Counted from the first letter of the stretch, positions 2,443-34,509 are shown. The stretch: DNA of 37,129 nt from a virus (IMGVR_UViG_2872174743_000010:1-37129), one strand, 5' to 3'. Numbers and translations are program-made. The notes: generated by a model not told the origin, from the sequence alone.

Positions 2443-2655
2443 ATGTTGAATGTAGCTATTGAAAACCAGAACGGGTGGAATTATAATGCACCTGCACCTC
2501 ATAAAACGGGCGCCGGGATTAGCACCCCGAAAGTTACTCGAGCGCATAACCGCGCTGAAGCGGTTTTTTTTATGCGTAATGCACAGCCACATTCAAATTA
2601 TGGTGAGGCGTGCGGGGCAGCCGCAAGGCTGGCCGGGTTCTCGAGTGACCGGTAG
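2443..2655 (+). CDS. Hypothetical small protein (70 aa)
   Basis: ATG preceded by AGGAAAGAGAAA; no recognisable motif; overlaps the 5' extension of the Rha ORF. Confidence 0.25.
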   Translation: MLNVAIENQNGWNYNAPAPHKTGAGISTPKVTRAHNRAEAVFFMRNAQPHSNYGEACGAAARLAGFSSDR

Positions 2656-2737
2656 TGCTAACCCTGTGCGTCTCACCACCCATGAGATTAGCACCTCTGC
2701 TGGTGAGTTAATTAACTTATCACTTGAGGATGTCATT

Positions 2738-3283
2738 ATGGCTACTACCCTTTCTCACCCTGACGTAACCATCGAAAATGGTCGCGCCGTCACTACTTCT
2801 ATTTCGATTGCTGAGTTTTTTGGCAAGCAGCATCACCATGTTGTTCAAAAAATAGAATCCCTCGAATGTTCTGAACTATTTTTAACCAGCAACTTTTCGC
2901 GGGTTAAATTCGAACACCGCGGCAATTCTTATAACGCCTACCAAATCACCAAAAACGGCTTCGTTTTCCTGGTGATGGGCTTCACGGGCAAAAAAGCCGC
3001 CACATTCAAGGAAGCCTACATTGCTGAGTTCGACCGCATGGAGGCCGAACTGCGCCAGAATAACACCCCACCTGCTGACAAGATGATTCCGGGTGATGGT
3101 CGCACTCTGGTTGTTCACTTCGACAAATTCGGCAATGTCGAATTCACCGAAACCGTTCCTGATGGCGCACTGGTCTGTACCCTGGAGACTTTCCGGTTTT
3201 ATCTGGAAAAACAGGGCTGGACTCTTGTAAACCGGGGCGCAATTAAAAACATGACCGTAGAGCAGTTGCTTTCCTTAAAATAA
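2738..3283 (+). CDS. Rha-family phage regulatory protein
   Basis: From the Met at 2738 (GAGGA upstream): MATTLSHPDVTIENGRAVTTSISIAEFFGKQHHHVVQKIESL...NAYQITKNGFVFLVMGFTGKKAA, the conserved Rha N-terminal domain. Confidence 0.8.
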   Translation: MATTLSHPDVTIENGRAVTTSISIAEFFGKQHHHVVQKIESLECSELFLTSNFSRVKFEHRGNSYNAYQITKNGFVFLVMGFTGKKAATFKEAYIAEFDRMEAELRQNNTPPADKMIPGDGRTLVVHFDKFGNVEFTETVPDGALVCTLETFRFYLEKQGWTLVNRGAIKNMTVEQLLSLK

Positions 3284-3406
3284 AAATGGAGCTATGGATA
3301 TGAACCCCATGCTTGATTATTGTTTTACACCTGCCCTCAGGCTGAGGTAGCCTGAGTTTAACGGACACTCCTTCCTGAAATAGAATGGCATCAGAAGGAG
3401 CTAATA

Positions 3407-3680
3407 ATGAGCAGAAAAAACCAACGTTACTCTAAAGAGTTCAAAGCCGAAGCTGTCAGAACGGTTCTTGAAAATCAACTTTCGATCAGTGAAGGCGCTT
3501 CCCGATTATCCCTTCCTGAAGGCACTTTAGGACAATGGGTTACCGCCGCCAGAAAAGGGCTCGGTACTCCTGGTTCCCGCACGGTGGCTGAACTGGAATC
3601 TGAAATTCTGCAACTGCGTAAGGCGTTAAATGAAGCTCGCCTTGAGCGATATATATTAAAAAAAGCAACAGCGTATTTTG
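3407..3680 (+). pseudogene. IS600 OrfA, truncated at the IS66-family insertion point
   Basis: MSRKNQRYSKEFKAEAVRTVLENQLSISEGASRLSLPEGTLGQWV...ILKKATAYF; contains the A-rich slippery run TTAAAAAAAG; reading continues into the IS66 inverted repeat (GTAAGCG at 3681). Confidence 0.8.
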
Positions 3681-3766
3681 GTAAGCGTAAACTGACCGCC
3701 GTATGTAGCCATTAAGCCTGTATTGGTAACGTAGGTGCCCACCTTTTCAACTAGTGGACACCTGTT

Positions 3767-4186
3767 ATGGAACAGAAAGCATTATCTGCAGAACCCCGCA
3801 GATCATTTTCAAATGAGTTTAAACTTCAAATGGTTAAACTGGCTTCACAACCAGGAGCCTCTGTTGCCCGTATTGTCCGGGAACACGATATCAATGATAA
3901 CCTGCTGTTCAAATGGCTCAGGCTCTGGCAGAACGAAGGGCGCATATCGCGGCGTCTTCCGGTAACAACCTCTTCTGACACTGGCGTTGAATTATTACCT
4001 GTGGAGATAACGCCGGATGAGCCGAAAGAACCGGTGGCTGCTCTTACTCCGTCTTTATCTACTCAGACTACAGTTAGTGCCAGCTCCTGCAAGGTGGAGT
4101 TCCGTCACGGTAACATGACGCTGGAAAATCCTTCACCAGAGCTGCTCACAGTGTTGATCCGTGAACTGACCGGGTGGGGACGATAA
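3767..4186 (+). CDS. tnpA: IS66-family accessory protein TnpA
   Basis: 139 aa with ...FSNEFKLQMVKLASQPGASVARIVREHDINDNLLFKWLR..., the IS66 orf1 pattern; stop overlaps the next gene. Confidence 0.85.
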   Translation: MEQKALSAEPRRSFSNEFKLQMVKLASQPGASVARIVREHDINDNLLFKWLRLWQNEGRISRRLPVTTSSDTGVELLPVEITPDEPKEPVAALTPSLSTQTTVSASSCKVEFRHGNMTLENPSPELLTVLIRELTGWGR

Positions 4187-4533
4187 TCTCACTCCCGTCA
4201 GGCACCCGCATCTGGCTCGTTGCTGGGATAACCGATATGCGTAAGTCTTTCAACGGGCTGGGTGAACAGGTACAGCATGTGCTGAATGATAATCCCTTCT
4301 CCGGTCACCTGTTCATCTTCCGTGGCCGACGGGGTGACATGATTAAAATCCTGTGGGCTGATGCTGATGGTCTGTGCCTGTTCACCAGACGCCTGGAGGA
4401 AGGCCAGTTTATCTGGCCTGCTGTGCGTGACGGCAAGGTATCCATTACCCGCTCGCAACTGGCAATGCTCCTCGATAAGCTGGACTGGCGTCAGCCAAAA
4501 ACATCCCGCCTTAACGCACTGACAATGTTGTAA
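4174..4533 (+). CDS. tnpB: IS66-family TnpB (orf2)
   Basis: GTG start overlapping the tnpA end; ...GTRIWLVAGITDMRKSFNGLGEQV...GHLFIFRGRRGDMIKILWADADGLCLFTRRLEEGQFIWP. Confidence 0.85.
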   Translation: MGTIISLPSGTRIWLVAGITDMRKSFNGLGEQVQHVLNDNPFSGHLFIFRGRRGDMIKILWADADGLCLFTRRLEEGQFIWPAVRDGKVSITRSQLAMLLDKLDWRQPKTSRLNALTML

Positions 4534-4563
4534 AAATGTCATGGCCGGATTATAAAAACGGCC

Positions 4564-6156
4564 ATGAATCAAAAATACCTCATTCGCATTGCAGAACTGG
4601 AATGCCAGCTCCGTCAGAAAGACCAGCAACTGAGTCTGGTTGAAGAGACGGAGGCCTTCCTGCGCTCTGCACTGGCCCGCGCCGAAGAAAAGATCGAAGA
4701 AGATGAACGGGAAATAGAACATCTGCGGGCTCAGATAGAAAAACTGCGCCGGATGCTGTTCGGTACCCGTTCTGAAAAACTGCGTCGTGAAGTTGAACAG
4801 GCTGAGGCCCTGCTGAAACAACGCGAACAGGACAGTGATCGTTACAGTGGGCGGGAAGACGATCCGCAGGTTCCCCGCCAGTTGCGACAGTCTCGTCATC
4901 GTCGCCCGTTACCGGAGCATCTGCCCCGCGAAATAAATCGCCTGGAGCCAGAAGAAAGCTGTTGCCCGGAGTGTGGCGGTGAGCTGGATTATCTGGGGGA
5001 AGTCAGCGCAGAACAACTGGAACTGGTGAGCAGCGCTCTGAAAGTGATCCGCACAGAACGGGTAAAAAAAGCCTGTACAAAATGTGACTGCATCGTTGAA
5101 GCACCGGCACCATCCCGTCCGATAGAGCGTGGTATCGCGGGCCCGGGGTTACTTGCCCGCGTGTTAACGGGAAAATACTGCGAACACCTGCCACTGTATC
5201 GTCAGAGTGAAATTTTTGCCCGTCAGGGTGTCGAACTGAGCCGTGCATTACTCTCCAACTGGGTTGACGCGTGCTGCCAGTTAATGACGCCGCTGAATGA
5301 TGCTCTGTACCGTTATGTGATGAACAGCCGCAAAGTTCACACTGATGACACACCAGTAAAAGTGCTGGCACCGGGCAGGAAGAAGGCGAAAACAGGATAT
5401 ATCTGGACGTATGTCCGGGATGACAGGAATGCCGGTTCGCCAGAGCCTCCGGCGGTCTGGTTCGCCTACTCACCGGACCATCAGGGTAAACATCCGGAGC
5501 AGCACCTTAGTCCCTTCCGGGGTATCCTGCAGGCAGATGCGTTTAATGGTTACGATCGGCTGTTCAGTGCCGAACGAGAAGGCGGCGCGTTGACGGAAGC
5601 AGGATGCTGGGCTCATGCGCGGCGCAAAGTCCACGATGTATATATCAGTACCAAAAGCGCGACAGCGGAAGAAGCCCTGAAACTAATCGGTGAGCTGTAC
5701 GCCATCGAGCACGAAATACGCGGGTTGCCGGTGTCTGAACGCCTGGCGGTCAGGCAAATGCAGAGTAAACCGCTACTGACTTCCCTGTATAAGCTGATGC
5801 AGGAGAAAGAACAGACGTTATCGAAAAAATGCCGTCTGAGAGATGCGTTCCGGTATATCAGGAAGCACTGGGTTGCGTTGTGCAACTTCAGTGATGATGG
5901 TCTGGCTGAGGCGGATAATAATGCCGCGGAAAGAGCGCTTCGTGCAGTCTGTCTCGGAAAGAAAAACTTTATGTTCTTCGGCAGCGATCACGGTGGAGAG
6001 CGTGGTGCGCTACTGTACGGGCTGATCGGCACCTGCCGACTGAACGGTATCGATCCGGAAGCGTATCTGCGCTATATCCTGAGCGTACTGCCGGAATGGC
6101 CTTCCAACCGTGTTGACGAACTCCTGCCATGGAACGTAGCACTCACCAATAAATAA
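4564..6156 (+). CDS. tnpC: IS66-family transposase TnpC
   Basis: 530 aa; coiled-coil N-terminus, CCPECGG zinc motif, DDTPVKVL, WAHARRK, ADNNAAERALR and [15 protein letters not shown] motifs, all characteristic of IS66 transposases. Confidence 0.9.
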   Translation: MNQKYLIRIAELECQLRQKDQQLSLVEETEAFLRSALARAEEKIEEDEREIEHLRAQIEKLRRMLFGTRSEKLRREVEQAEALLKQREQDSDRYSGREDDPQVPRQLRQSRHRRPLPEHLPREINRLEPEESCCPECGGELDYLGEVSAEQLELVSSALKVIRTERVKKACTKCDCIVEAPAPSRPIERGIAGPGLLARVLTGKYCEHLPLYRQSEIFARQGVELSRALLSNWVDACCQLMTPLNDALYRYVMNSRKVHTDDTPVKVLAPGRKKAKTGYIWTYVRDDRNAGSPEPPAVWFAYSPDHQGKHPEQHLSPFRGILQADAFNGYDRLFSAEREGGALTEAGCWAHARRKVHDVYISTKSATAEEALKLIGELYAIEHEIRGLPVSERLAVRQMQSKPLLTSLYKLMQEKEQTLSKKCRLRDAFRYIRKHWVALCNFSDDGLAEADNNAAERALRAVCLGKKNFMFFGSDHGGERGALLYGLIGTCRLNGIDPEAYLRYILSVLPEWPSNRVDELLPWNVALTNK

Positions 6157-6249
6157 GCGTCAATACGGTGCTCCGTTGACGCCTGATATGACTTTCCGTG
6201 TCAAACCGGAATCTCTAATTTTGACGATTTTCTTTTTAGGTTTAATTCC

Positions 6250-6435
6250 CTGAGGGCGACGTAGCAGTAAATCCGACGGTGAATCACGCTGATATTCGCG
6301 GGTTGGATACCGCATTACAGAGGTCCGTCATATGAGCCTGCCACTTTCTTACGTCGCGAATCAGCTTTGTTCCGCCGTCGCCAAGCGCTAACGTGGGTTA
6401 CTCTTGTACCGGGCTACGTCGCCTTCAGGGAACTG
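6250..6435 (-). ncRNA. Candidate structured non-coding RNA (bridge-RNA-like) in the IS110-family non-coding end
   Basis: Non-coding stretch just downstream of the transposase stop with nested complementarity: CCCTGAGGGCGACGTAGC (about 6248-6265) pairs 17 of 18 with GCTACGTCGCCTTCAGGG (about 6413-6430); GCTGATATTCGCG (about 6288-6300) pairs with CGCGAATCAGC (about 6355-6365); repeated TACGTCGC motifs. Strand and ends are inferred, not shown. Confidence 0.3.
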
Positions 6436-6449
6436 GTTATTCTCATTTT

Positions 6450-7577
6450 TTATTTGTGACATTGTGGTTGTTGTGCGACAGACATTGCTATTCGGCCCAT
6501 ATCCCAGATAAAACCCGCCAGCTCACGTGCAACAGCAACAATTGTAATATTGACATTCTTTCCTTTGGCCTGAAGTTTTCGATACCTCTTACAGAGCCTG
6601 AGTTGAGCATCCCATGCTCTGTCAATGACGGGGCGGGGTAAATTTTCCTGCCTTTTTTGTATTGCCGGACTGATGCGTGCCGGATGACGGTAACTCCACG
6701 CTGCCTCGACCAATAGCTTTCTGGCATAGCTGTTTCCGGCTTTGGTAATGCTGCCCTGATGTCTGCTTCCACCCGATGAATATTCTGATGGCGTGATACC
6801 AAACCATGACATCAGTTGTCGTGGATGTTCAAAACGGGTCAGATCACCCAGTTCAGAAATTAATCCAACCGCAGTAATAAACTGAATCCCTCGCATGGCT
6901 TGCAGCGCCTCTACTACCGGATACAGCCTCCATTCGGTAACGGCCTCCTTCAGGGCGGATTCCAGCCGTTCACATTGTGCCTGCCGGTCTTCTATTGTAC
7001 GACGGTGTTCGTCAAAAGCTAATTGTCGCCAGGGACTTTCGAATGAGTATTTGCTGAGCCAGCGTCGGTGTGCAGGGCCCCAATCTGCTCGCCCGACATA
7101 ATGGACCCCATGAACCAGAAGAAACGATTTCAGACGTTGCCTTGCATGCCGTAAATCATCGCGGGCAGATGCCCATGCCCGGGCCAAATCCCGGAATGCC
7201 TCATCTTCAATGCCGGGTACGTAGACAGCAGAAAGATCTCCTGCACGCAGTGAACGCACAAGTCTGATGGCATCACGGCGATCGGTTTTAACCCGCTCCC
7301 CCGGTTTTTTCGGGATAAGTGAGGGGGCGCAGACCATGCAGTCAAAACCGGATTTCACCAGCCGACGATAAAGTCCATAACCACAGGGCCCCGCTTCATA
7401 AACGATACTGACCTGCGATGACTTTGACCTGAGACGTTTACAAAGATTCTGAATATCAGTAGGTGATGTGCCAATTTTACCCATCAGTTCAACAGGTTCT
7501 GAATTGATAGCATAAGCGACAGTAATCGATTCTTTGTGAACATCTAACCCGACGTACAATGTGTTATTGTTGTTCAT
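6450..7577 (-). CDS. IS110-family transposase/recombinase (DEDD type)
   Basis: Start at the Met of MNNNNTLYVGLDVHKESITVAYA (GGAGG-like RBS upstream); N-terminal RuvC-like DEDD region and C-terminal ...GSITKAGNSYARKLLVEAAW... serine-bearing domain typical of IS110/IS1111 transposases. Confidence 0.85.
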   Translation of the reverse strand: MNNNNTLYVGLDVHKESITVAYAINSEPVELMGKIGTSPTDIQNLCKRLRSKSSQVSIVYEAGPCGYGLYRRLVKSGFDCMVCAPSLIPKKPGERVKTDRRDAIRLVRSLRAGDLSAVYVPGIEDEAFRDLARAWASARDDLRHARQRLKSFLLVHGVHYVGRADWGPAHRRWLSKYSFESPWRQLAFDEHRRTIEDRQAQCERLESALKEAVTEWRLYPVVEALQAMRGIQFITAVGLISELGDLTRFEHPRQLMSWFGITPSEYSSGGSRHQGSITKAGNSYARKLLVEAAWSYRHPARISPAIQKRQENLPRPVIDRAWDAQLRLCKRYRKLQAKGKNVNITIVAVARELAGFIWDMGRIAMSVAQQPQCHK

Positions 7578-7779
7578 GCTGGCCTCCGTGGTGGAAATAC
7601 CGGGGGGTAGCAACAGCTCACCCATGCGGCTCTGACAACGATGTTAACCCGCGTTAAATATCCCACGTTGGCCAGCATCTGTCTCACGGAAAGTCATACT
7701 GCCTTACGTATTTTGCACAGGAGTCGCTGATAAATACGCGTTAATCGAACAATGGCGACAACAATTTCCCATTGAAGCG

Positions 7780-8598
7780 ATGTGTCAGGTATTTGGTGTA
7801 TCCAGGAGCGGTTATTACAACTGGGTACAGCATGAACCCTCAGACAGAAAACAAAGTGATGAGCGGCTAAAACTGGAGATTAAGGTGGCACATATCCGCA
7901 CTCGCGAAACATATGGAACCCGGCGGCTCCAGACGGAGCTGGCAGAGAATGGCATCATCGTTGGTCGTGACCGACTGGCACGTCTTCGTAAGGAGCTAAG
8001 GCTACGCTGTAAGCAGAAACGCAAGTTCAGAGCGACTACGAACCCGAACCACAATCTGCCAGTTGCGCCAAATCTGCTGAACCAGACGTTCGCTCCTACA
8101 GCACCAAATCAGGTCTGGGTGGCGGACCTGACGTATGTTGCCACACAGGAGGGATGGTTGTACCTCGCTGGCATCAAAGATGTTTATACGTGCGAAATTG
8201 TCGGCTACGCCATGGGAGAGCGCATGACAAAAGAGCTGACAGGTAAAGCCCTGTTTATGGCGCTCAGGAGCCAGCGCCCACCTGCCGGGTTAATCCACCA
8301 CTCTGATCGAGGTTCACAGTACTGCGCATACGATTACCGGGTCATACAGGAGCAGTCTGGTCTGAAAACATCAATGTCGCGTAAAGGTAACTGTTACGAC
8401 AACGCTCCGATGGAAAGCTTCTGGGGAACGCTGAAAAATGAGAGCCTGAGCCACTATCGTTTTAATAACCGGGATGAAGCCATCTCAGTAATACGGGAAT
8501 ACATTGAGATTTTCTACAATCGTCAGCGTCGTCACTCTCGTCTGGGGAATATCTCCCCGGCAGCCTTCAGGGAAAAATATCATCAGATGGCTGCTTAA
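7780..8598 (+). CDS. IS600 OrfB (DDE catalytic part)
   Basis: MCQVFGVSRSGYYNWV...VWVADLTYV...HHSDRGSQYCA...NCYDNAPMESFWGTLKNE..., the IS3-family integrase core; the orfB frame is open upstream from about 7648, as expected for an OrfAB fusion. Confidence 0.85.
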   Translation: MCQVFGVSRSGYYNWVQHEPSDRKQSDERLKLEIKVAHIRTRETYGTRRLQTELAENGIIVGRDRLARLRKELRLRCKQKRKFRATTNPNHNLPVAPNLLNQTFAPTAPNQVWVADLTYVATQEGWLYLAGIKDVYTCEIVGYAMGERMTKELTGKALFMALRSQRPPAGLIHHSDRGSQYCAYDYRVIQEQSGLKTSMSRKGNCYDNAPMESFWGTLKNESLSHYRFNNRDEAISVIREYIEIFYNRQRRHSRLGNISPAAFREKYHQMAA

Positions 8599-8977
8599 AA
8601 AAAGAACAAATGGTAGTGTCCGCTATTGCCAGTACACCTCAGGCAGACCATCAGTCATACCGGGATTAAAAAATGGCTGTGGAGAATCAGAAAAATTCTC
8701 CAGCAAAAAGGTGACCCGGATTTAATACAATGTGATTACCATCTCTGCAATAAACAGTTTTTACCTGAAAAAGCTTTTACTGGCGAGCTTATTTATATGC
8801 ATGGAAACATGATTGCCAGAAAGAAACGAAAATATTGCGGTGCAGCTTGTGCCGAAAAAGACAAGATGGCACACGAACTTTAATTAACTGAATATTCGAA
8901 ACTGAATTTATGCCAGCAATGGGGTAATGCTGCCAACTTACTGATTTAGTGTATGATGGTGATTTTAAGGTGCTTGC

Positions 8978-9253
8978 GTGGCTTCCATTTCCATCAGATG
9001 TCCTTCCTGCTCCGCTACTGAAGGCGTGGTGCGTAACGGCAAAAGCACTGCCGGACATCAGCGCTATCTCTGCTCTCATTGCCGTAAAACATGGCAACTA
9101 CAGTTCACTTACACCGCCTCTCAGCCCGGTACGCACCAGAAAATCATTGATATGGCCATGAATGGCGTCGGATGTCGCGCCAGTGCACGCATTATGGGCG
9201 TTGACCTCAACACGGTTTTCCGTCACTTAAAAAACTCAGGCCGCAGTCGGTAA
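8978..9253 (+). CDS. insA: IS1 InsA
   Basis: [43 protein letters not shown]... Confidence 0.9.
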
Positions 9254-9279
9254 CCTCGCGCATACAACCGGGCAGTGAT

Positions 9280-9571
9280 GTGATTGTCTGCGCTGAAATG
9301 GACGAACAGTGGGGCTACGTCGGTGCTAAATCACGTCAGCGCTGGCTGTTTTACGCGTATGACAGGATACGGAGGACGGTTGTGGCGCACGTCTTCGGTG
9401 AACGCACTCTGGCCACACTGGAGCGTCTTCTGAGCCTGCTGTCGGCCTTTGAGGTCGTGGTATGGATGACGGATGGCTGGCCGCTGTATGAATCACGCCT
9501 GAAGGGAAAGCTGCACGTTATCAGCAAGCGTTACACTCAGCGCATTGAGCGACATAATCTGAATCTGAGAC
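9280..9571 (+). pseudogene. insB: IS1 InsB, 3'-truncated by the IS66-family insertion
   Basis: InsB frame reads ...[14 protein letters not shown] and then continues into IS66 DNA (RKRTA, stop), whereas the intact copy at 25340-25843 continues [13 protein letters not shown]... Confidence 0.75.
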
Positions 9572-9642
9572 GTAAGCGTACAGCCTGAACCGTCTGGTCA
9601 GAATCTGACGAATTAGACAAAGTGGTGTCCACCAAATAAGTA

Positions 9643-10044
9643 GTGGGAACCAAAGTGTCAGATATGCAGAAAAATGTGAATCCCGGCAGGCGAAAAGGCT
9701 GCCCTAATTATCCTCCCGAATTTAAACAGCAGCTCGTTGCTGCCTCCTGTGAACCCGGGATATCCATCTCAAAACTTGCTCTTGAAAATGGCATTAACGC
9801 CAATCTGTTGTTCAAATGGCGACAACAATGGCGCGAGGGAAAGCTGCTATTACCTTCTTCAGAGAGCCCCCAGCTACTTCCTGTGACTCTCGATGCAGCT
9901 GCCGAACAGCCAGAATCGCTCGCAGAGGATCCGGAAACCCTCAGTATCAGCTGTGAGGTAACGTTCCGGCACGGGACGCTCCGCTTCAATGGCAATGTCA
10001 GCGAAAAGCTCCTGACTCTGCTGATACAGGAACTGAAGCGATGA
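9643..10044 (+). CDS. tnpA: IS66-family TnpA (copy 2)
   Basis: ...PEFKQQLVAASCEPGISISKLALENGINANLLFKWRQQWREG...; start uncertain (GTG at 9643 or ATG at 9664). Confidence 0.8.
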   Translation: MGTKVSDMQKNVNPGRRKGCPNYPPEFKQQLVAASCEPGISISKLALENGINANLLFKWRQQWREGKLLLPSSESPQLLPVTLDAAAEQPESLAEDPETLSISCEVTFRHGTLRFNGNVSEKLLTLLIQELKR

Positions 10045-10388
10045 TCCCGTTACCTTCCGGGACCAAAATTTGGCTGGTTGCCGGTATCACCGATATGAGA
10101 AATGGCTTCAACGGCCTGGCGGCAAAGGTGCAGACGACGCTGAAAGACGATCCGATGTCAGGTCACGTTTTTATCTTCCGTGGGCGTAATGGCAGTCAGG
10201 TAAAGCTCCTCTGGTCTACCGGCGATGGACTGTGTCTGCTGACCAAACGGCTGGAGCGCGGCCGCTTCGCCTGGCCGTCAGCCCGGGATGGCAAAGTGTT
10301 CCTCACACCGGCACAGCTGGCGATGCTCCTTGAAGGTATCGACTGGCGGCAGCCTAAAAGACTGCTTACGTCCCTGACTATGTTGTAA
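10041..10388 (+). CDS. tnpB: IS66-family TnpB (copy 2)
   Basis: MIPLPSGTKIWLVAGITDMRNGFNGLAAKV...; ATG overlaps the tnpA stop (ATGA). Confidence 0.85.
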   Translation: MIPLPSGTKIWLVAGITDMRNGFNGLAAKVQTTLKDDPMSGHVFIFRGRNGSQVKLLWSTGDGLCLLTKRLERGRFAWPSARDGKVFLTPAQLAMLLEGIDWRQPKRLLTSLTML

Positions 10389-10436
10389 GCCTCTTTATCC
10401 TGGTCGACGCTGAATGAGCCTGGTAATATACCCGGT

Positions 10437-11975
10437 ATGAGCAGCTCACTTCCTGACGATATCAATGCACTGAAACGTCTCCTTGCCGAACAGGAGGCGC
10501 TGAACCGTGCCCTGCTGGAAAAGCTGAACGAGCGTGAACGCGAAATAGACCATCTGCAGGCACAGCTGGATAAGCTGCGCCGGATGAACTTCGGCAGCCG
10601 CTCCGAAAAAGTCTCCCGTCGTATCGCACAGATGGAAGCTGACCTGAAGGCACTTCAGAAAGAAAGTGATACCCTTACCGGTCGGGTTGACGACCCGGCC
10701 GTGCAGCGCCCGCTGCGTCAAACCCGCACCCGCAAACCGTTCCCCGAATCACTCCCCCGCGATGAAAAACGGCTGCTGCCGGCAGCGTCATGCTGCCCGG
10801 AATGTGGAGGCTCACTGAGCTATCCGGGTGAGGATGCCGCCGAACAGCTGGAGTTGATGCGCAGCGTCTTCCGGGTTATCCGGACTGTACGTGAAAAGCA
10901 TGCCTGTACTCAGTGCGATGCCATCGTGCAGGCCCCCGCGCCTTCACGGCCCATCGAGCGGGGTATCGCAGGACCGGGGCTGCTGGCCCGCGTGCTGATC
11001 TCAAAGTATGCAGAGCACACCCCGCTGTACCGTCAGTCTGAAATGTACGGCCGCCAGGGCGTGGAGCTGAGTCGTTCACTGCTGTCGGGCTGGGTGGATG
11101 CATGCTGCCGGCTACTGTCACCGCTGGAAGAAGCGCTTCAGGATTATGTGCTGACTGACGGTAAGCTCCATGCTGATGACACGCCTGTCCCGGTGCTGTT
11201 GCCAGGCAATAAGAAAACGAAGACCGGGCGGTTATGGACCTACGTTCGTGACGACCGTAACGCCGGGTCAACGCTGGCGCCGGCGGTGTGGTTCGCTTAC
11301 AGCCCGGACAGAAAAGGCATCCATCCGCAGACCCATCTTGCGGGGTTCAGTGGTGTACTGCAGGCGGATGCATACGCCGGGTTCAACGAGCTGTACCGGG
11401 ATGGCCGGATAACGGAAGCCGCCTGTTGGGCTCACGCCCGCCGTAAAATCCACGATGTGCACGTTCGCACCCCGTCAGCCCTGACGGAGGAAGCGCTGAA
11501 ACGGATCGGCGAACTGTACGCCATCGAGGCAGAGATAAGGGGAATGACGGCGGAGCAGCGCCTTGCCGAACGTCAGTTGAAAACGAAACCGCTGCTGAAA
11601 TCCCTGGAAAGCTGGCTGCGTGAAAAGATGAAAACCCTGTCGCGACACTCAGAACTGGCGAAAGCGTTCGCATACGCCCTGAACCAGTGGCCGGCGCTGA
11701 CGTACTATGCAGATGATGGCTGGGCTGAGGCGGACAATAACATCGCTGAAAATGCGTTGCGGATGGTCAGTCTGGGCCGCAAAAACTACCTGTTCTTCGG
11801 TTCGGATCATGGAGGAGAGCGGGGAGCGCTGCTGTACAGCCTGATCGGGACGTGCAAACTGAACGGAGTGGAGCCAGAAAGCTACCTCCGCTATGTACTT
11901 GACGTCATAGCCGACTGGCCGATAAACCGGGTCGGCGAACTGCTCCCCTGGCGCGTAGCACTGCCGACTGAATAA
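10437..11975 (+). CDS. tnpC: IS66-family transposase TnpC (copy 2)
   Basis: 512 aa with the same motif set as copy 1 ([48 protein letters not shown]), but clearly diverged from it. Confidence 0.9.
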
Positions 11976-12012
11976 CACATCCCCGTCAATACGGTTCTTG
12001 CTGCACGCTTAC

Positions 12013-24701: not shown

Positions 24702-25095
24702 ATTGCAGAAGGTGGACGACTGGCTGAGTGCATTATTGGCGAATCTGGAGCCAGCCGCAAGAAGCCGCATGATGCGCCAGCTGGCGCAGGAACTGCGCCG
24801 GACACAGCAGCAGAACATCAGGATGCAGCGCAATCCAGATGGCAGCAGTTATGAGCCGCGCAGGGTAACAGCACGCAGCAAAAAGGGGCGCATCAAACGT
24901 CAGATGTTTACAAAGCTGCGCACCACAAAATACCTGAAAACTGCAGCCAGCGCCGATTCTGCCAGCGTACAGTTTGAAGGTAGGGTGCAGCGCATTGCCC
25001 GTATTCACCATTACGGCTTGAGTGATCGCGTCAGTCGAAAAGGTATTTATACCATCTATGCGAAAAGGCAGTTATTAGGTTTTAATGTCCGGTAA
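24694..25095 (+). pseudogene. S: Tail completion protein S (P2 gpS-like), C-terminus cut by IS1
   Basis: 133 aa frame runs into the IS1 left end (stop supplied by GGTAATGC); P2 gpS is longer as remembered. Confidence 0.65.
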
Positions 25096-25145
25096 TGCTG
25101 CCAACTTACTGATTTAGTGTATGATGGTGATTTTAAGGTGCTTGC

Positions 25146-25421
25146 GTGGCTTCCATTTCCATCAGATGTCCTTCCTGCTCCGCTATTGAAGGCGTGGTGC
25201 GTAACGGCAAAAGCACTGCCGGACATCAGCGCTATCTCTGCTCTCATTGCCGTAAAACATGGCAACTACAGTTCACTTACACCGCCTCTCAGCCCGGTAC
25301 GCACCAGAAAATCATTGATATGGCCATGAATGGCGTCGGATGTCGCGCCAGTGCACGCATTATGGGCGTTGGCCTCAACACGGTTTTACGTCACTTAAAA
25401 AACTCAGGCCGCAGTCGGTAA
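25146..25421 (+). CDS. insA: IS1 InsA
   Basis: [43 protein letters not shown]... Confidence 0.9.
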
Positions 25422-25843
25422 CCTCGCGCATACAACCGGGCAGTGATGTGATTGTCTGCGCTGAAATGGACGAACAGTGGGGCTACGTCGGTGCTAAATC
25501 ACGTCAGCGCTGGCTGTTTTACGCGTATGACAGGATACGGAGGACGGTTGTGGCGCACGTCTTCGGTGAACGCACTCTGGCCACACTGGAGCGTCTTCTG
25601 AGCCTGCTGTCGGCCTTTGAGGTCGTGGTATGGATGACGGATGGCTGGCCGCTGTATGAATCACGCCTGAAGGGAAAGCTGCACGTTATCAGCAAGCGTT
25701 ACACTCAGCGCATTGAGCGACATAATCTGAATCTGAGACAACATCTGGCAAGGCTGGGACGGAAGTCACTGTCGTTCTCAAAATCGGTGGAGCTGCATGA
25801 CAAGGTCATCGGGCATTATCTGAACATAAAACACTATCAGTAA
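25340..25843 (+). CDS. insB: IS1 InsB frame (expressed as InsAB' by frameshifting)
   Basis: ...[45 protein letters not shown]...HYLNIKHYQ; full-length, unlike the copy at 9280. Confidence 0.85.
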
Positions 25844-34350: not shown

Positions 34351-34397
34351 CAACAAAAAACCCATCAACCTTGAACCGAAATGGCGGGGTTGATGGG
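34351..34397 (-). terminator. Intrinsic terminator candidate on the minus strand (downstream of ybjL)
   Basis: CCCATCAACC ... GGTTGATGGG stem with a 17-nt loop; on the minus strand it is followed by TTTTTTGTTG. Confidence 0.45.
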
Positions 34398-34509
34398 CTC
34401 CACAAAATGGGGACATCAAAGAAAAGCAGTGGCACTAATTAAGACTGATGCCCTGCGGAAAAGTTCTGCGGTTGTGCAAAAAAATTTCATTTTCAGGGCA
34501 ACTTCAGTT

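What the first reader, a model, noticed from the sequence alone, without database searches (positions are those of the whole stretch)
3343..8641. Three-deep nested insertion sequences: IS110-family inside IS66-family inside IS600
IS600 OrfA reads straight into the IS66 inverted repeat at 3681, and the IS600 orfB frame resumes at about 7716. The IS66 element with its IS110 passenger is flanked by the 8-bp direct repeat GTATTTTG (3673-3680 and 7708-7715), so the IS66 insertion event is directly documented; the IS110 element then sits inside the IS66 right end. The insertion lies about 20 bp downstream of the IS600 frameshift window.
Basis: seen in the sequence. Interest (0 to 1): 0.5.

Follow-up and report, generated by a model that had tools for sequence, protein, structure and literature searches.

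The report
Three nested insertion sequences, one RNA-guided
Three mobile elements really are nested here (ISSso6 inside an IS66-family element inside IS600), which is ordinary for Shigella-like genomes; the new point is that the innermost element probably landed in the tip of its host's end repeat because its own guide RNA matches that sequence.

Summary

- **IS600 (3343-8641).** It carries a 3-bp duplication GGC. Removing 3681-7715 gives 1264 bp that match annotated IS600 copies in one piece at 99.8%.
- **IS66-family element (3681-7707).** It is ISEc23-like, with an 8-bp duplication GTATTTTG. Without its passenger it is 2506 bp and gap-free against an empty copy (99.76%).
- **ISSso6 (about 6183-7704, minus strand).** It does not lie just "in the right end". 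It sits inside the IS66 right inverted repeat, 3 bp from the tip, at a CT core.

ISSso6 is an IS1111-type element. It has 14-bp subterminal inverted repeats, a DEDD transposase and a 3' non-coding RNA. Three empty/filled site pairs give the same junction. Two RNA segments pair with ACGTAAG^CGCTAACG, and the IS66 tip GTAAG^CGTCAACG is a near match. In about 45 elements (several ISSso6 copies plus relatives, mostly Burkholderiaceae) these segments covary with the flanks (0/5000 permutations).

The third layer is therefore most likely RNA-guided targeting rather than chance. This parallels IS4321/IS5075 in Tn21 ends.

It remains unknown whether IS66 entered IS600 before or after acquiring ISSso6. 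Overall this is a new member of a known kind, of modest interest.

The parts
3340..3342 (.). Left copy of the 3-bp target duplication GGC made by IS600.
   Evidence: The empty site with a single GGC is contiguous in EIEC prophages.
3343..3680 (+). IS600 left part: left inverted repeat, orfA start at 3407, and A7G frameshift motif at 3658-3665. orfA now runs on to 3715, inside IS66.
   Evidence: NCBIfam IS3 family match on the OrfA fragment.
3673..3680 (.). Left copy of the 8-bp target duplication GTATTTTG made by the IS66-family element (these bases are IS600 sequence).
3681..6182 (+). IS66-family element (ISEc23-like), left repeat through the inner part of the right repeat. Left repeat GTAAGCGTAAACTGACC... 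at 3681. tnpA 3767-4186, tnpB 4174/4183-4533, tnpC 4564-6156. The right repeat is interrupted after ...CCGTTGACG(C).
   Evidence: Pfam HTH_Tnp_1, TnpB_IS66 and DDE_Tnp_IS66. NCBIfam IS66 transposase 448 bits. Restored 2506 bp = 99.76% gap-free against empty copy L102.
6183..7704 (-). ISSso6 (IS110 superfamily, IS1111 type). Body 6185-7702 with CT core copies at 6183-6184 and 7703-7704. One extra C at 6182/6183 relative to other copies. Canonical insert size is 1520 bp.
   Evidence: Named by RefSeq annotation. Junctions defined by three empty/filled pairs. Extra C shown.
6187..6200 (.). Subterminal inverted repeat at the ISSso6 right end (TATGACTTTCCGTG on the + strand).
   Evidence: pair I16, 14 nt, 100% complementary. 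Conserved in relatives.
7685..7698 (.). Subterminal inverted repeat at the ISSso6 left end (CACGGAAAGTCATA on the + strand).
6450..7577 (-). ISSso6 transposase, 375 aa and intact. It has the DEDD domain and Transposase_20 domain, and is identical to the protein encoded in L002 and L011.
   Evidence: Pfam PF01548 and PF02371. NCBIfam NF033542 'IS110 family RNA-guided transposase', 274 bits against a cut-off of 140. Identity shown.
6243..6435 (-). Structured non-coding RNA downstream of the transposase gene (candidate seekRNA / bridge-type guide RNA). The closing stem pairs 6413-6435 with 6243-6265.
   Evidence: Single-sequence fold -79 kcal/mol, z = -5.5. Consensus structure over 24 relatives: 97.6% of cells paired and 10 compensatory pairs, against 33-42% paired when partners are slid.
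6383..6393 (-). Guide 1 (RNA 5'-CGUUAGCGCUU, 9-nt loop core UUAGCGCUU). It is complementary to the core plus right target flank AAG^CGCTAA(CG).
   Evidence: Perfect 11-nt match to the chromosomal site in L009. Homologous loop position covaries with the flank in relatives.
6348..6354 (-). Guide 2 (RNA 5'-ACGUAAG). It is identical to the left target flank plus core, so it pairs with the bottom strand CTTACGT.
   Evidence: GTAAG precedes every ISSso6 copy examined.
6289..6295 (-). Conserved RNA segment AUAUCAG, identical to the ISSso6 right-end tip ...CATATCAG. Candidate donor-end guide (inferred).
   Evidence: Invariant in nearly all relatives. Matches the right-end sequence.
6264..6269 (-). Conserved RNA segment UACUGC, complementary to the ISSso6 left-end tip GCAGTA. 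Candidate donor-end guide (inferred).
7705..7707 (+). Outermost 3 bp (TAC) of the IS66 right inverted repeat, separated from the rest of that repeat by ISSso6.
   Evidence: The empty right end reads ...GACGCTTAC.
7708..7715 (.). Right copy of the 8-bp target duplication GTATTTTG.
7716..8641 (+). IS600 right part: the rest of the orfA/orfB overlap, orfB (open frame to 8598), and the right inverted repeat.
   Evidence: NCBIfam IS3 family transposase 334 bits.
8642..8644 (.). Right copy of the 3-bp duplication GGC.

Best explanation
Three insertion events are stacked.

1. IS600 (IS3 family) inserted between the rha and ydaE genes of a prophage and duplicated GGC.
2. A 2506-bp ISEc23-like IS66-family element inserted 15 bp downstream of the IS600 frameshift motif and duplicated GTATTTTG. 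This separates orfA from orfB by 4 kb, so this IS600 copy can no longer make its fused transposase. Its ends remain intact.
3. ISSso6 inserted at a CT dinucleotide 3 bp from the outer tip of the IS66 right inverted repeat. ISSso6 is an IS1111-type member of the IS110 superfamily.

Step 3 is not a random hit. ISSso6 encodes a structured RNA of about 190 nt downstream of its DEDD transposase gene. An internal loop of that RNA carries two short guides that together specify 5'-ACGTAAG^CGCTAACG-3' (written in ISSso6 orientation). The conserved tip of IS66-family repeats, GTAAG^CGTCAACG, is a near match.

By analogy with ISEc11 and IS621, the transposase-RNA complex is inferred to pair a circular ISSso6 copy with this site and recombine at the shared 2-bp core. 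All but 5 bp of the IS66 right repeat is left 1.5 kb inside the composite, which probably cripples that IS66 copy.

**Shown:** the anatomy, the junctions, the empty sites, and the guide/target covariation.
**Inferred:** RNA expression, the circular intermediate, and the order of steps 2 and 3.
For: **Nest anatomy and restoration**
-.

**Same ISSso6 junction at independent sites** (target-CT-[IS]-CT-TAC)
- ISEc23, which is 91% diverged from the window's IS66 (L003 against empty L004).
- A conserved chromosomal hokC-nhaA intergenic site (L009 against empty L021).
- A 155-bp IS66 remnant near CP4-44 that has no transposase genes. It is empty in K-12 and filled in EIEC strain VL40.
- All fetched copies have GTAAG on the left-end side and nearly all have CG(C/T)(T/C)AAC-like sequence on the right-end side.

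**IS1111-type hallmarks**
- 14-bp perfect subterminal inverted repeats.
- The long non-coding region lies downstream of the transposase gene.
- PF01548 plus PF02371, and NCBIfam 'IS110 family RNA-guided transposase'.

**Guide RNA**
- An 11-nt perfect match between the non-coding region and the L009 target.
- In 45 elements with distinct targets (six of them ISSso6 copies in enterobacteria that share one guide RNA; the rest relatives from a scan that returned mostly Burkholderiaceae), the two loop segments match their own flanks better than the flanks of other elements. Diagonal mean 12.0 nt against 9.4 nt, 0 of 5000 permutations.
- The guides lie on opposite strands of an internal loop bounded by covariation-supported stems.

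**Literature**
- This architecture (a top-strand match lying 5' of a bottom-strand match, overlapping in the target) is the one shown experimentally for IS1111-family seekRNAs (PMC11187229).
Against: - The IS66 right-repeat tip is not a perfect match. The 9-nt guide-1 core gives 7 Watson-Crick pairs, one rG:dT wobble and one A:C mismatch. The perfect site is the chromosomal one in L009.
- The IS66 left-repeat tip (GTAAGCGTAAACT) matches almost as well, yet it is unoccupied here and in every locus examined. This is unexplained.
- Two sites (L006 sopA, L007/L008) match guide 1 poorly.
- There is no expression or transposition data for ISSso6.
- The extra C at the junction is not predicted by a clean core exchange.
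- The order of layers 2 and 3 cannot be deduced from the duplications.
Confidence: 0.85

Rival explanations
1. The IS66-family element already carried ISSso6 and the 4-kb composite transposed as one unit into IS600. In that case layer 3 predates layer 2. The IS66 transposase would have used the hybrid right end ...GTCATACTGCCTTAC, which keeps only 5 bp of the original repeat.
For: - Composites of 4026-4052 bp with proper 8-bp duplications occur at other loci: TATTGGTA in pdxK (L002) and GAGAAAAG (L003).
- The rare extra-C junction variant of the window is shared with a composite at a different right flank (ypjA, L018). About 35 other IS66-context copies lack it.
- No IS600::IS66 intermediate without ISSso6 was found.
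Against: - The duplications are equally expected if ISSso6 arrived after IS66.
- ISSso6 demonstrably enters IS66 right-repeat tips on its own, including a remnant that cannot transpose and a 91%-diverged family member.
- Nothing shows that an IS66 transposase can use an end retaining 5 bp of its repeat.
- Shigella chromosomes, where an intermediate would most likely be found, are not in the searchable collections.
Confidence: 0.25
2. The third layer is an untargeted, chance insertion in an IS-rich genome, as is usual for nested IS in Shigella.
For: - The window is crowded with IS elements: IS600, two IS66-family elements and two IS1 copies.
- Nested IS are commonplace in Shigella and EIEC. This rests on general knowledge, not on a test here.
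Against: - The junction is identical to the base pair at four or more independent sites, including non-IS DNA.
- The element carries guide segments complementary to that junction.
Confidence: 0.03
3. The arrangement is an assembly artefact, produced by collapse or chimeric joining of repeated IS copies.
For: All three elements are multicopy repeats, and such repeats are prone to misassembly.
Against: - Both outer layers have exact target duplications at their termini.
- Each excision restores a sequence that exists uninterrupted elsewhere.
- A chimeric join would not produce matched duplications at two nested levels.
Confidence: 0.01

Closest known systems
IS4321 / IS5075 (IS1111 family), which insert at one position in the 38-bp terminal inverted repeats of Tn21-family transposons
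   Same: - An IS1111-type element with subterminal inverted repeats.
- It inserts in one orientation at a fixed position inside the terminal inverted repeat of another mobile element.
- It makes no conventional target duplication.
- The target is cited in PMC11187229.
   Different: - The host here is the tip of an IS66-family insertion sequence repeat, not a Tn3-family transposon end.
- The guides and the transposase lineage differ.
- The IS66 tip is a near-cognate match to the guides, not a perfect one.
ISEc11 and its seekRNA (Siddiquee et al. 2024, PMC11187229)
   Same: - An IS1111-type element from EIEC/Shigella.
- The 3' non-coding region encodes an RNA with a top-strand match lying 5' of a bottom-strand match, overlapping at the insertion point.
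- The ends could form a junction promoter. In ISSso6, TTGACA in the right end lies 17 nt from CAGTAT in the left end across a circle junction (inferred).
   Different: - The target differs: GTGAAAATACTG for ISEc11.
- The ISSso6 transposase is 375 aa against 339 aa, and is only about 17-25% identical to the elements shown in the part of that paper's identity matrix that was retrieved.
- ISSso6 has no experimental data.
IS621 bridge RNA (IS110 group)
   Same: - A DEDD recombinase.
- A 2-bp CT core shared by donor and target.
- Guide segments on opposite strands of an internal RNA loop.
- A second conserved module whose segments match the element's own ends.
   Different: - The RNA lies downstream of the gene rather than upstream.
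- Subterminal inverted repeats are present.
- The comparison with IS621 rests on my recollection of the published model and on the IS110/IS1111 contrast in PMC11187229. It was not tested here.
Ordinary nested IS in Shigella/EIEC genomes and pINV plasmids
   Same: IS600, IS66-family elements, IS1 and ISSso6 pile into each other repeatedly. L105 in S. dysenteriae pINV is a four-element pile.
   Different: None for the two outer layers. Only the innermost layer has a sequence-programmed explanation.

Membership tests
IS600 (IS3 family) | About 1264 bp with terminal inverted repeats beginning TGAGG. | tested here: met
   Restored length 1264 bp, 100% coverage at 99.8% to annotated IS600.
IS600 (IS3 family) | 3-bp target duplication. 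| tested here: met
   GGC on both sides. The empty site with a single GGC is contiguous elsewhere.
IS600 (IS3 family) | orfA and orfB joined by a -1 frameshift at an A-rich slippery motif, with a DDE (rve) transposase. | tested here: met
   A7G at 3658-3665. orfB matches the NCBIfam IS3 transposase model at 334 bits. Database copies are annotated with a programmed frameshift. In this copy the two frames are physically separated.
IS66 family | Three genes: tnpA, tnpB and tnpC (DDE_Tnp_IS66). | tested here: met
   Pfam and NCBIfam matches above cut-off for tnpB and tnpC. tnpA passes Pfam HTH_Tnp_1 and NF047595.
IS66 family | Terminal inverted repeats beginning GTAAGCG, and an 8-bp target duplication. 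| tested here: met
   Left repeat at 3681. The restored right repeat is ...GACGCTTAC. Duplication GTATTTTG. The same repeat tips occur on the second IS66-family element at 9572-12012.
IS110 superfamily | Transposase with an N-terminal DEDD (RuvC-like) domain and a C-terminal Transposase_20 domain carrying the G..P....SG motif. | tested here: met
   PF01548 and PF02371. NF033542 at 274 bits against a cut-off of 140. GITPSEYSSG is read directly in the ORF.
IS1111 type (within IS110) | Subterminal inverted repeats a few bases in from each end. | tested here: met
   14-nt perfect pair at 6187-6200 and 7685-7698. Conserved in relatives.
IS1111 type (within IS110) | The long non-coding region lies downstream of the transposase gene. 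| tested here: met
   267 nt downstream against 125 nt upstream. The criterion comes from PMC11187229.
IS1111 type (within IS110) | The transposase clusters with the IS1111 clade in a phylogeny, with a typical length of 330-350 aa. | not tested
   No tree was built. At 375 aa the protein is longer than the typical range quoted in PMC11187229.
IS1111 type (within IS110) | Site-specific insertion in one orientation, with no duplication beyond the shared core. | tested here: met
   Three empty/filled pairs give the same junction, with only CT repeated.
seekRNA / bridge-RNA guided recombination | [quoted passage not shown] | tested here: met
   CGUUAGCGCUU and ACGUAAG against ACGTAAG^CGCTAACG.
seekRNA / bridge-RNA guided recombination | The guides covary with the target among relatives (programmability). 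| tested here: met
   Cognate matches exceed non-cognate matches in 0 of 5000 permutations over 45 elements. An anchored alignment shows the variable loop segments tracking the flanks. Caveat: related elements are not independent.
seekRNA / bridge-RNA guided recombination | The RNA is expressed, binds the transposase and is required for transposition. | not testable with these tools
   Shown only for ISEc11, ISPa11, ISKpn4, ISPst6 and ISEc21 (PMC11187229). Rfam 15 has no family that matches this region at the gathering threshold.

The most novel reading that the evidence does not exclude
ISSso6 may be an RNA-guided insertion sequence whose guide has been selected to recognise the conserved terminal repeat of IS66-family elements. 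Other insertion sequences would then serve it as harmless landing pads.

The hybrid right end it creates may still be usable by the IS66 transposase, so that ISSso6 also hitch-hikes as part of a 4-kb composite. The rare extra-C junction variant shared by two different loci would be a trace of such composite movement.
Probability: 0.15. Interest if true: 0.6.

Novelty: new member of a known kind. Interest (0 to 1): 0.3.

Why it matters
**For annotation.** This is a clean worked example of peeling three IS layers apart. It also shows that the IS600 copy, and probably the IS66 copy, are disabled, whereas ISSso6 has an intact transposase gene, ends and guide region.

**For biology.**
- ISSso6 gains a defined target (ACGTAAG^CGCTAACG), a CT core, exact ends and a candidate guide RNA. 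I found no paper that describes any of these.
- It adds a second case, after IS4321/IS5075 in Tn21 ends, of an IS1111-type element aimed at another mobile element's terminal repeat.
- The set of relatives found (mostly Burkholderiaceae), which share one RNA scaffold but carry many different guides, is a ready-made natural dataset for the pairing rules of 3'-encoded guide RNAs.

None of this changes how such systems are understood.

Tried and rejected
- **Rfam scan.** A gathering-threshold scan of the whole window found only RybB, C4 and isrK, and nothing in the ISSso6 non-coding region.
- **ISEc11 reference locus.** I tried to fetch it for a direct comparison, but the accession is not in the collections.
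- **pINV ospE2-virF site.** I tested whether this ISSso6 site is a decayed IS66 end. No TnpC remnant or significant nucleotide match was found, only about 30 bp of resemblance to an IS66 right repeat. This is left open.
- **Natural retargeting in E. coli.** I looked among relatives that are 95.6% identical in the transposase gene (L017, L019). Both copies are truncated at or near the guide region, so no flank test was possible.
- **IS600::IS66 intermediate without ISSso6.** I searched for one to order the events. None was found in E. coli genomes or plasmids. S. dysenteriae pINV has a different junction 24 bp upstream in a diverged IS600-like element.
- **ISSso6 end as a mimic of the IS66 repeat.** I considered that it might preserve composite mobility. 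The similarity (TGAC...CCGT) is weak and I do not rely on it.
- **AUAUCAGCGU as a target guide.** I considered this segment of the RNA. It is conserved regardless of target, so it fits an end-recognition or scaffold role instead.

Full report
**1. The observation**

The region was read directly and the ORFs were listed.

IS600:
- IS600 starts at 3343 (TGAGGTAGCCTGAGTTTAACGGACAC) and ends at 8641 (...GTGTCCGCTATTGCCAGTACACCTCA).
- GGC lies immediately outside each end.

IS66-family element:
- At 3681 the sequence switches to GTAAGCGTAAACTGACCGCC, a typical IS66-family repeat.
- At 7707 it ends ...CTGCCTTAC.
- The octamer GTATTTTG abuts both points, at 3673-3680 and 7708-7715.

Restoration tests:
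- Deleting 3681-7715 leaves 1264 bp. These align in one piece, full length, at 99.8% to copies annotated 'IS3-like element IS600 family transposase' in EIEC and Shigella plasmids.
- Joining the outer flanks with one GGC removed gives a 678/678 contiguous match (99.7%) between rha and ydaE in prophages of several EIEC chromosomes.

Both outer layers are therefore documented by target duplications and by existing empty sites.

Effect on IS600:
- OrfA now reads into the IS66 repeat. It is 102 aa, against 100 aa when restored.
- The insertion point is 15 bp downstream of the A7G slippery motif (3658-3665).

**2. The middle layer**

- Genes tnpA (3767-4186), tnpB (to 4533) and tnpC (4564-6156) match the IS66-family models of Pfam and NCBIfam.
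- The element is about 91% identical to ISEc23 over the composite. It is 99.6% identical to unnamed 'IS66 family' copies in EIEC and Shigella.
- Removing 6183-7703 leaves 2506 bp. These align without a gap at 99.76% to an empty copy in a Shigella boydii plasmid, whose right end reads ...CCGTTGACGCTTAC.

**3. The innermost layer: exact position**

RefSeq annotators call the minus-strand gene 'IS110-like element ISSso6 family transposase'.

An empty ISEc23 (L004...GTTGACGCTTAC|flank) was compared with a filled one (L003). The insert lies inside the right inverted repeat: GTTGACG-CT-[GATATGACTTTCCGTG ... CACGGAAAGTCATACTGC-CT]-TAC. Only CT is repeated, and only TAC (or CTTAC counting the core) remains outside.

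The same junction was found at two further independent empty/filled pairs:
- A conserved chromosomal site between hokC and nhaA. It is empty as CCCGTTAGCG-CTTAC-AGCC in L021 and filled in L009.
- A 155-bp IS66 remnant beside CP4-44 that has no transposase genes. It is empty in K-12 (L104) and filled in EIEC strain VL40 (L103).

In every ISSso6 copy fetched, the left-end side is preceded by GTAAG. In nearly all, the right-end side is followed by CG(C/T)(T/C)AAC-like sequence.

The canonical insert is 1520 bp. The window's copy has one extra C (GACGCCTGATATG). Among about 35 copies in IS66 context, only one other shares this variant, at the ypjA locus of strain FDAARGOS_943.

**4. What kind of element ISSso6 is**

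- It has 14-nt perfect subterminal inverted repeats, at 6187-6200 and 7685-7698.
- It has a 375-aa transposase with DEDD_Tnp_IS110 and Transposase_20 domains. This matches NCBIfam 'IS110 family RNA-guided transposase' at 274 bits, against a cut-off of 140.
- The transposase is identical to the protein in other intact copies.
- It has 267 nt of non-coding sequence downstream of the gene and only about 125 nt upstream.

According to Siddiquee et al. 2024 (PMC11187229), these are the hallmarks of the IS1111 type. In that type, the 3' non-coding region encodes a seekRNA. [quoted passage not shown]

**5. The guide RNA**

Fold:
- The minus strand of 6240-6440 folds at -79 kcal/mol, z = -5.5.
- It is closed by a long stem, also seen as inverted repeat I2.

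Guide segments, written in ISSso6 orientation:
- CGTTAGCGCTT (window 6383-6393) is the exact complement of AAG^CGCTAACG. That is the L009 chromosomal target, core included.
- ACGTAAG (6348-6354), 33 nt downstream, equals the left flank plus core.
- Together they specify ACGTAAG^CGCTAACG.
- The IS66 right-repeat tip GTAAG^CGTCAACG gives 7 Watson-Crick pairs, one rG:dT wobble and one mismatch with the 9-nt loop core of the first guide. It fully matches GTAAG of the second.
- In the window the adjacent duplicated bases happen to extend the second match to 7 of 7.

Relatives:
- A scan of one genome per species found no closer relatives than elements with 71-81% identical transposases. All but one of the 80 kept loci are from Burkholderiaceae; the other is a Variovorax contig.
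- They share the same ends, AG(G/T)CAGTATGAC ... GTCATATCA(G/A), and the same subterminal repeats.
- Their non-coding regions share a strongly conserved scaffold.
- Two short segments differ from element to element and track that element's own flanks.
- For 45 elements with distinct targets, six of which are ISSso6 copies that share one guide RNA, cognate guide/flank matches exceed non-cognate ones in 0 of 5000 permutations. Related elements are not independent, so this is not a strict probability.

Consensus structure over 24 sequences:
- The two variable segments lie on opposite strands of an internal loop between two stems.
- 97.6% of cells are paired and 10 of 51 pairs show compensatory changes.
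- When partners are slid, only 33-42% of cells pair.

The 3' half of the RNA is nearly invariant. It contains AUAUCAG, identical to the right-end tip, and UACUGC, complementary to the left-end tip. I read these as end-recognition segments. That reading is an inference.

**6. Mechanism proposed**

- By analogy with ISEc11, ISSso6 would excise as a circle. The circle junction would read TTGACA-17 nt-CAGTAT, a plausible promoter (inferred).
- The RNA-transposase complex would pair with GTAAG^CG..AAC sites and recombine at the CT/AG core.
- The outermost bases of IS66-family repeats are GTAAGCGT at all four IS66-family ends in this window. These elements therefore present near-cognate targets wherever they go.
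- ISSso6 sits in at least three different IS66-type right ends: the window's IS66 type, ISEc23, and the remnant near CP4-44.

Open points:
- The equally similar left repeat is never occupied in the loci I saw.
- Two sites (sopA, and the CaiF/GrlA-adjacent site) fit the first guide poorly.

**7. Order of events**

- The 8-bp duplication proves an IS66 transposition into IS600. It would look the same whether or not ISSso6 was aboard.
- Composites with proper duplications occur at other loci, and the extra-C variant is shared between two loci. Both hint at composite movement.
- The remnant case proves that ISSso6 can arrive on its own.
- No intermediate was found in the searchable collections, which lack Shigella chromosomes.
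- I give sequential insertion about three to one over composite transposition.

**8. Consequences for the three copies**

- **IS600.** The ends are intact, but orfA and orfB are split. It could be mobilised only in trans, as a 5.3-kb unit.
- **IS66.** The genes and the left repeat are intact. The right repeat is split 3-5 bp from its tip, so the copy is probably immobile.
- **ISSso6.** The gene, ends and guide region are intact. The extra base at its right-end flank might hinder excision, because flanking target bases are required for circle formation in ISEc11 (PMC11187229).

**9. Novelty**

- Nested IS in Shigella and EIEC are routine, and each gene here is already annotated in many genomes.
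- ISSso6 appears in only six papers in the searchable library. One was checked in its text, and another lists it only in supplementary sequence and identity tables. The remaining titles and abstracts concern IS mapping or resistance surveys.
- A combined search for IS1111, IS66 and inverted repeat returned six papers, none of whose titles or abstracts concern this association.
- The target, core, ends and guide RNA of ISSso6, and its habit of landing in IS66 repeat tips, therefore appear to be undescribed.
- They fit an established mechanism and an established precedent (IS4321/IS5075 in Tn21 ends).

Verdict: observation confirmed, interpretation supported and sharpened, a new member of a known kind, modest interest.

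Noticed in passing
window 8923-12012: An IS1 copy is cut off after 649 bp at 9571. It is 99.5% identical to a second IS1 at 25091-25739. A second, different IS66-family element (9572-12012, tips GTAAGCGTACAG / GTAAGCGTGCAG) abuts it. That element has no matching 8-bp duplication (tctgagac against cattgacg), so a rearrangement or deletion followed. Neither of its tips carries ISSso6.
   Followed up: partly
window 6182-6183: There is one extra C at the junction between the ISSso6 right end and the IS66 repeat (GACGCCTGATATG against GACGCTGATATG). Among about 35 copies in IS66 context, judged mostly from match lengths, it is shared only with the composite in the ypjA locus of E. coli FDAARGOS_943 (L018). 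It extends the repeat flanking ISSso6 from AG to AGG. Its origin is unexplained.
   Followed up: partly
L001 4854-5260 and L005 4956-5360 (EIEC pINV plasmids); window equivalent 6381-6393: There is a 205-bp tandem duplication of the ISSso6 segment running from the right end to the first guide. The duplication junction, CCAAGCG-CT-GATATGAC, lies in the DNA that encodes that guide. This DNA necessarily resembles the target (CCAAGCGCTAACG, 2 mismatches). It looks like self-targeted recombination.
   Followed up: partly
L105 (S. dysenteriae pINV, NZ_CP026833.1 25800-34800): This is a four-element pile. A diverged IS600-like left part is joined to the same IS66 left repeat 24 bp upstream of the window's junction. 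That IS66 is split by another, inverted IS66-family element. ISSso6 is again in the right-repeat tip. An inverted IS600 right end abuts the IS600-like left end.
   Followed up: partly
L017 1501-2836 and about 17 other STEC chromosomes (hits H132-H148): This is a relative of ISSso6 that is 95.6% identical over the left end and the gene. Its first guide differs (TGTTAGCGTCTGG against CGTTAGCGCTTGG). In the one copy inspected (L017) the element is truncated beside the guide region; the other hits stop at the same query position. In L019 an IS66-family element lies beside a truncated copy of this relative, which may be the reverse nesting.
   Followed up: partly
window 2494-2683 and 34352-34430: Rfam finds isrK and the C4 antisense RNA just upstream of the rha/ant-like ORF (2459-3283), which is a P1/P7-type prophage immunity region. 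It also finds the chromosomal sRNA gene rybB on the minus strand. The nest therefore sits in a prophage on a chromosome, not on pINV.
   Followed up: no
L022-L101 (genome contigs): The closest transposase relatives of ISSso6 outside E. coli and Shigella (71-81% aa identity) are in Paraburkholderia, Caballeronia, Cupriavidus, Mycetohabitans and one Variovorax contig. No nearer relatives were found in other enterobacterial species representatives. This suggests ISSso6 reached Shigella and EIEC by transfer from Betaproteobacteria.
   Followed up: partly
L010-L015 (pINV, ospE2-virF interval): In Shigella sonnei, S. boydii, S. dysenteriae and EIEC invasion plasmids, an ISSso6 copy sits about 370-500 bp upstream of virF. 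Its flank is GTAAG^CGTTAACCGAATG, which resembles an IS66-type repeat tip. No IS66 gene remnant was detectable beside it.
   Followed up: partly
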